Shown here piece by piece: positions 4,218-51,248 of a stretch of 64,000 bases of DNA. The stretch comes from Eledone cirrhosa. Taxonomy: Eukaryota. How positions within the stretch are numbered: the first letter of the stretch is position 1; every line of letters starts with the position of its first letter. Under the pieces are notes generated by a model that made no database searches, was not told the DNA's origin, and worked only from the letters and a program-made list of their open reading frames with translations. Made by a program: the position numbers and the translations under genes. The stretch is taken from contig OZ024762.1 of the NCBI GenBank assembly GCA_964016885.1, forward strand, positions 27,590,001 to 27,654,000, given 5' to 3'.

Positions 4218-4827
4218 GTAAGTATGTATGTATACGTACATACATATATGTATACAGACGTACAGTAGCATGCATATATATATATATATATATATATATA
4301 TATATATATATATATATATATATATATATATATATATATATATATATATATATATATATATATATATATACATATATATACAAATACACATACATATATG
4401 CACGCATCAGTTTAGCCGACGAAATTTCGTTTTCATTTTTTCAACTTATCGTTTTCTGTATGCCTGACCGATTTAACTCACTCAATATGCAAATTAGGCT
4501 GCTCACCCGTTAATTTTCATGAGGAAAGTATATACTTTCGAACGTTCAACTATCTGGCAGATGGGTAAACGGTGCTGATGATAGCTAACAAGCTTGAAAC
4601 TAGTACATCGTTCCTGTGTCAGTGTTGAACAAAAAGGTGACGTGGTTGCCTTAACACCGTATGGCATAAATTCAGGCTGTTCGATTTGTTTACAAACAAA
4701 CGAACAAGGCATGCTACTGTACGTCTGTATACATATATGTATGTACGTATACATACATACTTACATTTAAGTAAGTGCCATACTAAGAGTGAGAAATGAA
4801 ATTTCGTTTTCATTTTTTTCAACTTAT
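4218..4827 (+). mobile_element. Retrozyme-like terminally redundant monomer (4421-4827) with inverted 5' piece (4218-~4410)
   Basis: Direct repeat gaaatttcgttttcattttt(t)tcaacttat at 4421 and 4798; IR 4218-4273 / 4709-4764; one HHR; homologous to 50606-51248. Confidence 0.75.
4570..4610 (+). ncRNA. Minimal hammerhead ribozyme
   Basis: cggtg CTGATGA t-agc-taacaa-gct-t GAAA ctag TA catcg; GUA site, palindromic stem III. Confidence 0.8.
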
Positions 4828-5126
4828 ATATATATATATATATATATATATATATATATATATATATGTATATATATATATATATATATATATATATGTA
4901 TATATATATGTATATATATATATATATATATATATATATATATATATATATATATATATATATATATATATATATATATACAAGTGGAAGCTTAGTAAAA
5001 TCGAAGCTTTGGCTGTGGGCAAGCAAAGTTGACCTACAATAGGAATAATGTCTGGTGGGTATTTATGTATGTATATCGCTTTCTCTCTCTGTATATATAT
5101 TATTATTATTATTATTATTATTATTA

Positions 5127-6403
5127 TTACAGTTGCATTTATCTTGCTTTACGTTCATACGAGTTATCACCAAGTCACAACCAGTGACCTCAAGAGACAA
5201 CAAGGTCCGCCATGTTCAAGAAAGAACATACATACTCACACATGCATCTTTAGTGTTTAGACTTGTGATGTACTTATATTGACAGAATCTTCCTTAGTAT
5301 ATGGGCAGTTCCCATTAGTACTATCTTTTGTATTTCTCCTATACGCGGGTTTCCTGGGATTTGCGATAAGTAATCATTAGACCCCTTAGGTATCATTCCC
5401 AGAGCGCCCACAACCACTGGTATTGTTTTAGTTCTCAATTTCCACATTTTTCCAATTTCTATCTCCAGGTCCTTATACTTGCTCAATTTTTCAAATGTTT
5501 TTATAGATACATTCTTGTCTATTGGAACGGACATATCAATTAGCAGGCATACCCTCTTTTTAAAGTCCTTCAATATTATATCAGGTCTATTTGCATCTAT
5601 TTTTCGGTCTGTTTGGATGCTAAAGTTCCACAAGATTGAGATGTGATCTTTTTCAAGTATGGGAGGTGGTTGATGCTCCCACCAATTCTTTTGATGAGGC
5701 AGGTCAAAATGCTTACACATTATCCAATGTATGTATTGTGCAGCTCTGTCATGCCTATTTAGGTATTCGGTTGGAGCTATAGGACTGCACATTGAAATTA
5801 TGTGGCCAATAGTCTCTGGTTGTTTTTTGCACACACGGCATAATGGGCTGCATCCATTTTTTATTATGTTGGCTTGGTAATTTTTTGTTGGTAGACACTG
5901 ATCTTGTGCTGATATAATCAGTCCTTCAGTCTCCGATTTCAGTCCAGAGGATGCCAACCACTGATGGGTTAAAGTTTTGTCAATAATCAGGATTGTTAGC
6001 TCGTTCTGGGTATTTTCCATACAGAGGCCTTTCTTGCCATTTCTTAGCCAGTTTCTGTAGCAGTTCTTTCTTTGCAGTTACTTTTACCTGCTTTGCTTTT
6101 TCTGTGTTTTCCATTTCAGCAGTAAATGGGACTTCTGAAATGTGTAGTCCATTACTGTATCTTTGTGCATCTTTTGTAATGGAATATGATCTTTTGATGC
6201 TTTCGTGTTTCAAAACGAGTTTGATCATCCAATCATGTGATTCCCTTAGATATGTAGATAATCCAATTGTTGCAGTTTTCAACGCAATGTCTAACTGGAC
6301 TAACCCACGTCCTCCTTCTTTCCTAGGGAGATATATTCTATCTATATCTGCCTTAGGGTGATGCATTCTGTGCATGGTTAAGAATTTTCGAATTTTTGTA
6401 TCG
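5127..6403 (-). mobile_element. 5'-truncated R4/Dong-clade RLE non-LTR retrotransposon (family B), frameshifted
   Basis: ORFs 5980-6375 (DRIYLPRKEGGRGL) and 5274-6020 (CRVC..ETIGHIISMC, RHD, RPDIIL..LIDMSVP..K..KY); (ATT)n on both sides. Confidence 0.9.
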
Positions 6404-6509
6404 TTATTATTATTATTATTATTATTGTTGTTATTCCTTGAATCTCAGTCATTGATGTTGGTTAACTGGAAAGTCCGTTGGATTGAATATCAAGCCACTA
6501 CCTGCAGCC

Positions 6510-49855: not shown

Positions 49856-50427
49856 TATATATATATATATATATATATATATATGAAAAACATGGGGAGA
49901 AGAATACTGCATGGTTGCACATGGATTACATATTATAAAATTAGTCCCTCATCAGTGATTTGCCAACCTTCATTGGTATTTCATCGCATTAAAAATCAGA
50001 TACCTCAGGTTGGTGCGAGCAATAACTAAAATAAGCTATTGGGACAAGTGAAACGCGTAAAGCGAGTGAGACAAGTAAACAACAGAAGGAAAAGCAAACC
50101 GAAGGTTGGGAAGACAGCAAGCAATCATGATAGTTATCCGATCAGCAGCTGGGTGAATTTCATGAGCGGACCGTACGCCGTGAATGCGGTGTGAGAAAGA
50201 AGGAACCCCACTATTAGCGAACGGGAGGAAGTGAGAAGGGGAGAAACAGAGAGTGAGTGAGTGGAAGTGCGAGGAAGAGGTCAGTCGAGAGAAAGTGTTA
50301 ACTGACAGAGGGGACGAAAGAAGGTAAGAGAAACAGAGAGAACGGGGGAGCAGTAAGAGAGAAAGAGAGAAACAGATAATCGCAGTTTAGGTAAATATAT
50401 ATGAAATACATGGGGAGAAATATATAT

Positions 50428-50497
50428 ATAATTGTTTCTACTTTAGGCACAAGGCCAGAAATTATCCCAGTGCATTACTGGTACTTTATTTTATCGA
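50428..50497 (-). mobile_element. SINE family 1 3' fragment
   Basis: attgtttctactttaggcacaaggcc..ccagtgcattactggtactttattttatcga. Confidence 0.75.
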
Positions 50498-50605
50498 TAT
50501 ATAATGCTGTTGTTATTCTTCTGGTTCCATGGTTCCTTGTATTATGTACGGGGACGGCTGTTGGATATTTCTATCATCTTTTCTTTTATATTTTATATGT
50601 CTTTG

Positions 50606-51248
50606 TACGGCTGTTACTTAAATATAAGTATGTATACGTACATACATATATGTATACAGACGTACAGTAGTATGTATATATATATACATACATGCACACA
50701 TATATATATGTACGTATGGATTCACCGAACATTTATTATAATGCTCGGTGTGTTTGTAAACAAACAACCTGGATTAAGCCGTAGTGTCTAGCAACCATCG
50801 TTGCTCATTTGTTCAACACTGACAAAGGAACGCTGTACTAGTTTCAAGCTTATTAGCTATCGTCAGCAATGTATACCTTCCTGCAAGATGATTGAACGTC
50901 TGAAAGTATATACTTTCCTTATGCATATTAACGGCTGAGCAGCCTAATTTGCATATCGAGTGAGTTAATCGGCCGGAGTACCGAAAACGATAAACGGAAA
51001 AAATGAAACGAAATTCCATTTCTCACTCTTAATACGGCTGTTACTTAAATATAAGTATGTATACGTGTTTAGCAACGGTGGTTGCTAGACACTACGGCTT
51101 AATACGGGATGTTTGTTTACAAACACACCGAGCATTATAATAAATGTTCGATGAATCCATACGTACATGTATATATGTGTGCATGTATGTATATATACAT
51201 GCTACTGTACGTCTGTATACATATATGAATGTACGTATACATACTTAT
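50606..51248 (-). mobile_element. Retrozyme-like terminally redundant monomer (50606-51066) with inverted 5' piece (51067-51248)
   Basis: Direct repeat tacggctgttacttaaatataagtatgtatacgt at 50606 and 51033; one HHR; homologous to 4218-4827 but circularly permuted. Confidence 0.78.
50831..50871 (-). ncRNA. Minimal hammerhead ribozyme (family of 4570)
   Basis: Minus strand: cattg CTGACGA t-agc-taataa-gct-t GAAA ctag TA cagcg. Confidence 0.72.

What the first reader, a model, noticed from the sequence alone, without database searches (positions are those of the whole stretch)
4218..51248. Circularly permuted, terminally redundant HHR monomers: signature of a circular-RNA retrozyme
Seen: two homologous ORF-less copies (4421-4827 on +, 50606-51066 on -) each contain one HHR (GAAA-ctag-UA). 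Each runs just over one full unit (periods ~377 and ~427 nt), but the redundancy falls at different points of the unit. Copy 1 starts and ends with gaaatttcgttttc..aacttat; copy 2 starts and ends with acgtatacatacttatatttaagtaacagccgta. Both also carry an inverted partial copy at the 5' side. Inference: the template was a circular or tandem-multimeric RNA reverse transcribed from different start points, as for non-LTR retrozymes described in other invertebrates and amphibians. I do not know of a description for this lineage.
Basis: partly seen in the sequence, partly recalled or inferred. Interest (0 to 1): 0.85.

Follow-up and report, generated by a model that had tools for sequence, protein, structure and literature searches.

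The report
Octopus hammerhead retrozyme with Penelope footprints
Two related ~400-base non-coding inserts, each holding a hammerhead ribozyme motif and a little more than one head-to-tail unit, belong to an abundant repeat family of a probable octopus that was likely pasted in by Penelope-type retrotransposon enzymes from an RNA longer than one unit; this is a known kind of element, and its predicted circular RNA is untested.

Summary
There are two ORF-less copies (4421-4827 +, 51066-50606 -), with periods 377 and 427 nt and redundancies of 30 and 34 nt. Each has one type I hammerhead and a head-to-head inverted 5' arm. Public runs show a very abundant family that continues in register at every unmasked position of the unit, with further head-to-head inversions at other loci. 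'Different RT start points on a circle' is weakly supported: both inverted arms end at the same site (E1), and copy 1's sense end (E2, 56-58 nt on) recurs in 42 contigs followed by (TA)n. Only copy 2's end is odd. Partial tandem, inverted 5' arm, alternative 3' ends and (TA)n targets are the published Penelope-like element (PLE) insertion signature, shared by other hammerhead repeats in this window. Verdict: a PLE-mobilised non-LTR retrozyme family, a new member of a known kind, which my searches did not find described for octopods. Linear read-through RNA versus circle is undecided (about 0.45 versus 0.33). No RNA test was possible.

The parts
4213..4273 (-). Copy 1 inverted, 5'-truncated arm; its 3' end is E1. 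It may extend through the (TA)n run to 4420 (inconclusive).
   Evidence: 98% to 4709-4769; 4371-4420 scores 48 against copy 2's TA-rich segment, tied with two unrelated TA-rich windows of 2536.
4274..4369 (.). (TA)n run between the inverted arm and the sense copy
4421..4827 (+). Copy 1 sense arm, 1.08 units of 377 nt; 3' end E2 followed by (TA)n
   Evidence: the same end in 42 contigs of run X1
4421..4449 (+). Copy 1 5' redundancy (partial tandem, a 30-nt 'pLTR')
4544..4630 (+). Type I hammerhead with extended helix I: helix I 4568-4574/4606-4612, core 4575-4581 and 4596-4599, helix II 4 bp, helix III 2 bp with palindromic loop; predicted cut after 4605
   Evidence: 30 of 30 listed pairs formed
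4798..4827 (+). Copy 1 3' redundancy
4825..4980 (.). (TA)n target run at copy 1's 3' end
50606..51066 (-). Copy 2 sense arm, 1.08 units of 427 nt; 3' end at 50606, 50605 or 50600; flank is not (TA)n
   Evidence: family letter at 51032
50606..50639 (-). Copy 2 3' redundancy
50811..50897 (-). Type I hammerhead of copy 2 (core 50866-50860 and 50845-50842; predicted cut after 50836), partly decayed
   Evidence: 27 of 30 pairs; two of the three breaks (50870, 50885) are letters that 99-100% of X1 depth does not share
51033..51066 (-). Copy 2 5' redundancy
51071..51253 (+). Copy 2 inverted, 5'-truncated arm; its 3' end is E1, followed by (TA)n 51246-51325

Best explanation
These are two dispersed, single-hammerhead copies of an abundant non-coding repeat family, likely a non-autonomous Penelope-like element (non-LTR retrozyme) that PLE protein probably inserted into (TA)n by target-primed reverse transcription of an uncut read-through RNA longer than one unit. 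Shown: unit structure, in-register continuity, hammerhead fold, head-to-head arms, recurrent 3' ends E1 and E2, and (TA)n at 3 of 4 outer ends. Inferred steps: (1) a tandem master is transcribed from the upstream unit into the next; (2) PLE protein nicks both strands of a (TA)n run; (3) each nick primes RT at one of two preferred internal RNA sites, E1 and E2, about 217 and 273 nt past the hammerhead cut site, which leaves a ~56-nt 'tail'; (4) one cDNA stops early (inverted arm), the other passes the intact hammerhead and ends 30-40 nt beyond one full unit; (5) the two cDNA 3' ends are joined head-to-head. The two arms were probably copied from different RNA molecules. A copy with one hammerhead would not release a monomer by double cleavage, so these two copies are probably dead-end offspring. 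The umbrella claim (PLE-mobilised hammerhead element from a more-than-unit RNA) I put at about 0.8; the confidence given is for the linear-template version.
For: Anatomy matches the PLE signature in PMC8557442 (passages): partial tandem, inverted 5'-truncated copy at the 5' end, tail, microsatellite bias. PMC11167929 (main text): a PLE protein cuts and extends both strands of AT-rich DNA, starts RT at internal sites that make the tail, and uses unprocessed RNA as the dominant substrate in vitro. E1 is the same in both copies; E2 recurs in 42 X1 contigs with a (TA)n consensus. 9 of 15 joints shown (47 listed in all) are strand switches; in all 9 the shorter side counts back to a point below the joint (7 exactly to an AATT site), so they are head-to-head like the window copies, with scattered 5' points. 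Continuity: X5 contigs tile 50725-51066, with depth 96.8 across 50974-50997 against 45-146 in the body; X21 reads fall only from 3203 to 2742 and from 2130 to 1928 across E2. Hammerhead: 7 of 30 pairs differ between the copies, 4 stay paired in both (2 with both sides changed), and G-U pairs (4 and 3) outnumber A-C (0 and 1), pointing to this strand as the RNA. Among 40 variant rows shown only N7 of the core varies (69 rows hidden). Two templates: at 4 of 9 substitutions between copy 2's arms the inverted arm's letter is a family variant at 20, 67, 98 and 92% of X1 depth. Other hammerhead palindromes in the window have tails of ~56-80 nt and (TA)n flanks, and PLE-type RT / GIY-YIG fragments are present.
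Against: No tandem master with two hammerheads was seen: the longest listed piece covers 164 nt of the stretch, and 50624-50724 was masked. The tail (56-58 nt in copy 1, 13-19 in copy 2) is outside the published 30-40 nt. Copy 2's sense end is not E2 and has no (TA)n flank. 5' points are scattered from 197 to 297 nt past the cut site and beyond, with no single start site. Both copies overshoot one lap by almost the same 30-40 nt although their ends differ by ~45 nt, which a circle explains more simply. X1 depth dips to 0.37 million (72-83 thousand at single positions) at 50974-50994, just past E2, against 1-2 million elsewhere; hypervariability there is my explanation, but a unit boundary is not excluded. 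At 50833 52% of X1 depth has the other letter but only 12% has the compensating letter at 50869 in the rows shown. Pair 10.1-11.1 is U-U, not the usual G-C. No autonomous partner was identified.
Confidence: 0.45

Rival explanations
1. Circle template: hammerhead dimers cut out a 377-427-nt monomer, a host ligase closes it, and PLE RT primes on the circle, goes once round and stalls 30-40 nt into its own hybrid.
For: 2 of 2 window copies are one lap plus 30-40 nt with shifted ends. Depth is roughly flat round the unit in X1 and X5, with no 5' decline and no dip at the cut site. Helix lengths fit the canonical metazoan type I hammerhead of retrozymes rather than the minimal PLE form (PMC4209133). 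Circular fold z = -4.1 and -8.8 on 40 shuffles. Circles are abundant for coral, mussel and axolotl retrozymes (PMC7229834).
Against: 3' ends recur at E1 and E2. A linear transcript starting in the upstream unit also gives a 1.1-mer. Without the TA-rich segment the fold z drops to -4.2 (copy 2) and -1.9 (copy 1). Helix III is 2 bp and 10.1-11.1 is U-U, so cleavage may be poor; 8 of 9 Xenopus retrozyme dimers did not cleave in vitro (bioRxiv 10.64898/2026.07.22.740005). Copy 2's odd end may be a later deletion.
Confidence: 0.33
2. The copies are 5'-truncated pLTR / 3'-end remnants of an autonomous PLE, and the apparent unit is an accident of nested self-insertion.
For: Insertion anatomy is identical to that of PLEs; a PLE-type ORF fragment (51363-52283, same strand) lies just upstream of copy 2. 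In X4, 0.34 of what was laid runs on unlike (10 records). Retrozymes are related to pLTRs in Xenopus.
Against: The sequence upstream of the unit's 5' part is the unit's own 3' part in both copies and in X1, X5 and X21. The share running on unlike is 0 in X1 and 0.01 in X5. The ORF fragment is separated from copy 2 by a 24-nt piece also found at 21330-21354 and by (TA)n. BLAST found no homology of the unit to other window elements outside TA-rich stretches.
Confidence: 0.12
3. A DNA-level repeat (satellite monomer moved by extrachromosomal circles or by template switching in TA hairpins), with the hammerhead a passenger.
For: The unit holds a TA-rich palindromic segment; DNA circles would also give permuted ends.
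Against: Strand-specific G-U pairs and an invariant core, recurrent 3' ends in (TA)n, arms that differ at family-polymorphic sites, and the same anatomy in unrelated hammerhead repeats nearby.
Confidence: 0.05

Closest known systems
Metazoan non-LTR retrozymes (Cervera & de la Pena 2020, PMC7229834; passages and sections 14 and 17 read, supplement unreadable)
   Same: No ORF; type I hammerhead with weak palindromic helix III; unit near the mussel's 350-390 nt; GC 36-37%; self-paired fold; head-to-tail continuity.
   Different: The window copies are 1.08-mers with one hammerhead, not dimers or multimers. They carry inverted arms, tails and (TA)n targets, which the passages I read do not describe. 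Circles are not shown here. 'Octopus' and 'cephalopod' do not occur in that paper's main text.
Non-LTR retrozymes as non-autonomous PLE derivatives (Li, Clavereau & Pollet 2026, bioRxiv 10.64898/2026.07.22.740005; parts 1-3 of 5 read)
   Same: Dispersed monomers read as offspring of tandem masters; co-occurrence with PLEs; PLE mobilisation proposed.
   Different: 35 genomes (31 vertebrates, 3 insects, 1 anthozoan), no mollusc. Its evidence is distribution and pLTR phylogeny, not insertion anatomy. No parent pLTR was identified here.
Penelope-like elements, EN+ clades (Craig et al. 2021, PMC8557442, passages; Frangieh et al. 2024, PMC11167929, parts 1-2 of 4)
   Same: Partial tandem, inverted 5'-truncated arm at the 5' end, two alternative 3' ends, AT-rich or (TA)n targets, intact hammerhead upstream of the RT starts.
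   Different: No ORF; the redundancy is only 30-40 nt and does not contain the hammerhead; the tail is 56-58 nt (copy 1) rather than 30-40.
Schistosoma SINE-like hammerhead repeats and newt satellite 2 (seen only through review passages, PMC6765202; PMC7229834)
   Same: High-copy short hammerhead repeats; single copies thought unable to propagate.
   Different: Promoter type untested here; the reviewed model has the cleaved monomer copied into DNA, whereas these copies run across the cut site.

Membership tests
Non-LTR retrozyme | Type I hammerhead with canonical helix lengths and short palindromic helix III | tested here: met
   helix I 6-7 bp plus extension, helix II 4 bp, helix III 2 bp; deviation: U-U at 10.1-11.1.
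Non-LTR retrozyme | No protein coding; short unit; GC below 45% | tested here: met
   377 and 427 nt, GC 0.37 and 0.36; longest ATG ORF 83 and 68 aa; no tRNA gene in the window.
Non-LTR retrozyme | Head-to-tail repeat with at least two hammerheads (active master) | tested here: inconclusive
   In-register continuity at all unmasked positions, but the window copies have one hammerhead each and no record is long enough to span two.
Non-LTR retrozyme | Highly self-paired monomer | tested here: met
   63-65% paired, z -4.1 and -8.8 as circles; z -4.2 and -1.9 without the TA-rich part; opposite strand of copy 1 z -0.8.
Non-LTR retrozyme | Self-cleavage and accumulation of circular RNA | not testable with these tools
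   Needs bench work or RNA runs.
Non-LTR retrozyme | Absence of LTR, PBS and PPT | not tested
   No formal PBS/PPT search; no long terminal repeat is present (redundancy 30-40 nt).
Non-autonomous Penelope-like element | Partial tandem (pLTR) plus inverted 5'-truncated copy adjoining the 5' end | tested here: met
   2 of 2 window copies; 9 of 15 shown joints are head-to-head strand switches.
Non-autonomous Penelope-like element | 30-40 nt tail between two 3' ends | tested here: inconclusive
   Two recurrent ends exist, but 56-58 nt apart; copy 2 has 13-19 nt. Neighbouring families show ~56 and ~80 nt.
Non-autonomous Penelope-like element | Microsatellite / AT-rich target | tested here: met
   (TA)n at 3 of 4 outer ends; (TA)n consensus at E2 in 42 contigs.
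Non-autonomous Penelope-like element | 3'-end similarity to an autonomous PLE family | not testable with these tools
   No genome held; none within the window by BLAST.
pLTR of an autonomous PLE | Joined upstream to an RT + GIY-YIG ORF | tested here: not met
   Upstream sequence is the unit itself; share running on unlike 0 (X1) and 0.01 (X5). A rare parent is not excluded (518 loose-end rows hidden).

The most novel reading that the evidence does not exclude
Tens of thousands of dispersed copies are footprints of a dimeric Penelope-type protein reverse-transcribing a hammerhead-made RNA circle on both target strands and stalling just after one lap. The family would then give the first genome-scale record that animal retrozymes move through circular templates and PLE machinery.
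Probability: 0.3. Interest if true: 0.72.

Novelty: new member of a known kind. Interest (0 to 1): 0.42.

Why it matters
Retrozymes of animals and their link to PLEs are published, but the reviews I read call the mobilising partner and the circular RT template likely rather than shown. Here a retrozyme-type unit carries the PLE insertion scars directly: inverted arm, two 3' ends and (TA)n target. The family is abundant (0.55% of records in one reduced-representation run, 2 copies in 64 kb), so mapping copy ends in an octopod assembly could settle circle versus linear template by computation alone. As a catalogue entry it only extends a known kind to a probable octopod.

Tried and rejected
Whole-genome mapping of copies: no genome held. 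Rfam: no hammerhead among 150 of 159 matches shown; the top matches were hairpin/miRNA models below their gathering scores. The repeat finder was swamped by a 28-nt satellite. Exact 32-letter core pattern: 0 matches in metagenome and in viral contigs. Earlier-findings look-ups by sequence, by seven words and by place were empty. Sequencing runs: no RNA holder listed. The 25,544 X21 loose ends at 51010-51012 looked like a fixed 3' end 34-36 nt past E1 (a textbook tail), but they sit on an AATT site where library molecules begin and end. I treat them as probable restriction-ligation chimeras and do not use them; a real end there is not excluded. The clustering of inversion points near the hammerhead (7 of 9 at 50832-50896) was set aside because size selection can produce it. 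The 'goes back 274' joint reads as an internal deletion variant, not a tandem junction. Similarity of copy 2's 3' flank to the unit's tail is marginal (p 0.04 and 0.036 on 500 shuffles). Extension of copy 1's inverted arm to 4420 is inconclusive. The ORF at 51363-52283 was considered as copy 2's parent and rejected for lack of continuity. A-to-I editing as the source of arm differences was not supported: the changes are mixed. E1 could not be tested because it lies 20 nt from the homologous edge and inside the mask.
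Full report
Observation. Copy 1 runs 4421-4827 (+) with period 377 nt and a 30-nt redundancy (29 of 30 columns, one T indel). Copy 2 runs 51066-50606 (-) with period 427 nt and a 34-nt exact redundancy, 38 of 40 if taken to 50600. Rotated to the hammerhead cut site, the monomers align with 318 matches, 38 mismatches and 92 gap columns; most gaps come from a segment that copy 1's unit lacks. Each redundant stretch is internal and continuous in the other copy, so the template ran across the unit junction. 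Longest ATG ORFs on the doubled units are 83 and 68 aa. ARAGORN found 0 tRNA genes in the window.

The ribozyme. Both copies have the core, a 4-bp helix II, a 2-bp helix III closed by a palindromic loop, and a long interrupted helix I. A motif-plus-stem scan gave 9 hits in the window and 0 in each of 20 shuffles; it missed copy 2. Of 30 pairs that I listed, copy 1 forms 30 and copy 2 forms 27. Seven differ between the copies; 4 stay paired in both, 2 of them with both sides changed. Two of copy 2's three breaks (50870, 50885) are letters that 99-100% of X1 depth does not share, so copy 2 is partly decayed. G-U pairs number 4 and 3, A-C 0 and 1, which favours this strand as the RNA. Among 40 variant rows shown (69 hidden), only N7 of the core varies. 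Against: pair 10.1-11.1 is U-U where PMC4209133 calls G-C highly conserved, and at 50833/50869 the shown rows give 52% versus 12%, so compensation is incomplete there. Rfam listed no hammerhead among 150 of 159 matches shown.

The ends. Copy 1's sense arm ends at E2, 56-58 nt further on, again into (TA)n. Copy 2's sense arm ends only 13-19 nt past E1 and its flank is not (TA)n. So 3 of 4 outer ends lie in (TA)n. At 4 of the 9 substitutions between copy 2's arms, the inverted arm has a family variant carried by 20, 67, 98 and 92% of X1 depth; the other 5 have no row shown, 4 of them being in the masked part. Three of the four lie within 6 nt. I infer that the arms came from different RNA molecules or different units of a multimer; later point mutation is less likely but not excluded.

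The family elsewhere. No genome is held. One search listed 20 runs of 16 studies that hold the stretch or part of it (3 hold half of its words or more). I laid 4 of the 23 listed runs on 50520-51075 (50624-50724 masked by the tool). X1 gave 9086 contig records with summed depth 0.37-2.0 million per bin over 50729-51051, and the share running on unlike sequence is 0. X21 gave 68,576 of 12,467,656 records (0.55%). X4 and X5 gave 10 and 19 records. The tool warns that depth is no copy number; with 2 copies in 64 kb I infer only an order of tens of thousands of copies. X5 contigs tile 50725-51066 without a break, at depth 96.8 across 50974-50997 against 45-146 in the body. X21 reads fall only from 3203 to 2742 and from 2130 to 1928 between 50995 and 50979. 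There is no dip at the hammerhead cut site. X1 does dip at 50974-50994 (72-83 thousand at single positions). Loose ends there (33 and 27 contigs) read as variant in-register sequence, so I ascribe the dip to divergence of copy 2, but a boundary is not excluded. Of 19 loose-end rows shown (518 hidden), one is a clear terminus: 42 X1 contigs end at 50990 into (TA)n, which is copy 1's E2. Of 15 joints shown (47 listed), 9 switch strand. Their shorter sides count back to AATT at 51012 (5), to AATT at 50946 (2 exact, 1 off by one) or to the mask edge (1), so all are head-to-head like the window copies, with scattered 5' points. Reads are too short to tell whether those arms are 1.1-mers. The 25,544 loose ends at 51010-51012 were dropped as probable library chimeras at an AATT cut.

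Surroundings. The window is rich in PLE-type remains. The RT-like ORF 40996-42060 has its best hits in Octopus sinensis (62% identity over 94%) and Argonauta, with further Octopus hits (79 hits among 1488 candidates), so the host is probably an octopod; the species was not determined. One homologue carries RT and GIY-YIG domains, and 43811-44401 has a weak GIY-YIG match (E 0.009, below cut-off). Four other hammerhead-bearing head-to-head palindromes lie at 3558-4216, 20956-21251, 54162-54666 and 55156-55503, with TA-run flanks; three have one-sided tails of about 80, 56 and 80 nt. The inverted arm and tail are thus ordinary for this genome. What is special to the present family is the ORF-less closed unit with a canonical-length hammerhead.

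Mechanism. PMC8557442 (passages) describes PLE insertions as partial tandems with an inverted 5'-truncated copy at the 5' end, a 30-40-nt tail and microsatellite bias. PMC11167929 (parts 1-2 of 4) shows a PLE protein cutting and extending both strands, starting RT at internal sites that define the tail, with unprocessed RNA as the main substrate. That accounts for E1, E2, the two arms and the intact hammerhead without a circle, provided a tandem master supplies read-through RNA (0.45). A circle (0.33) accounts more simply for both copies overshooting one lap by 30-40 nt from different ends, and for the flat depth. It was already proposed for PLEs in PMC4209133 (parts 1-2 of 4) and for retrozymes in PMC7229834 (sections 14, 17) and PMC7761336 (passages). 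DNA data of this length cannot separate the two. A pLTR remnant of an autonomous element (0.12) and a DNA-level repeat (0.05) fit worse.

Prior description. Eight full-text searches returned no paper describing a hammerhead repeat or retrozyme in octopods. PMC8967140 (passages) counts Penelope among expanded coleoid families and has no 'ribozyme'. PMC8557442 mentions Naiad PLEs in Octopus. The 2026 preprint (parts 1-3 of 5) sampled no mollusc. PMC8490949 and PMC6765202 were seen as passages, PMC10886601 as a listing only. The library lacks most subscription papers; the supplement of PMC7229834, the preprint's supplements, Repbase and Dfam were not seen and may list this family. Earlier scan notes (8 of 76 shown) report similar units in other genomes; they are leads only.

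Verdict. Interest 0.42, because the insertion scars tie a retrozyme-type unit directly to PLE machinery and make the circle-or-linear question testable on an assembly.

Noticed in passing
window 3558-4216 and 54162-54722: Two copies of one head-to-head palindromic family, a hammerhead-like motif in each arm. One copy has both arms at the long 3' end; the other has a ~56-nt one-sided tail. Copy 1 of the finding sits in the (TA)n at the end of 3558-4216.
   Followed up: partly
window 55076-55503 and about 20875-21251: Two more hammerhead-bearing palindromes with ~80-nt one-sided tails; 55156-55503 is 99% perfect, so recent. Related motifs face each other at 55696 (-) and 56639 (+).
   Followed up: partly
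window 3479-3555 and 36371-36447; 891 (-); 45740 (+); 49391 (-); 36675 (+): Further short hammerhead-like motifs of other families; 3488 and 36380 also have U-U at 10.1-11.1.
   Followed up: no
window 39903-42063 (+), 42616-44404 (+), 37670-38991 (-), 51363-52283 (-): Broken PLE-type ORFs; the last three are related to each other (33-58% identity in short stretches), two with GIY-YIG-like C-termini. Candidate partner clades, not assigned.
   Followed up: partly
window 6510-9935 (-), with further copies to about 18400: Intact-looking 1141-aa non-LTR retrotransposon ORF (RVT_1, zf-RVT) followed by a stack of ~90-95% identical degraded copies in the same orientation.
   Followed up: no
window about 26400-33700: About 7-kb satellite of 28-nt units with 12/16-nt subunits.
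   Followed up: no
window 51323-51345 and 21330-21354: A shared ~24-nt hairpin-forming piece ends in (TA)n at both places; probably the 3' tip of another (TA)n-targeting element.
   Followed up: partly
runs X1 versus X4 and X5: Summed depth differs by about four orders of magnitude between organism A and organisms B and C, which may mean a recent burst in one lineage; sequencing depth and divergence are not controlled.
   Followed up: no
window 57240-58488: Nested short inverted and direct repeats (87-97% identity), unexplained.
   Followed up: no
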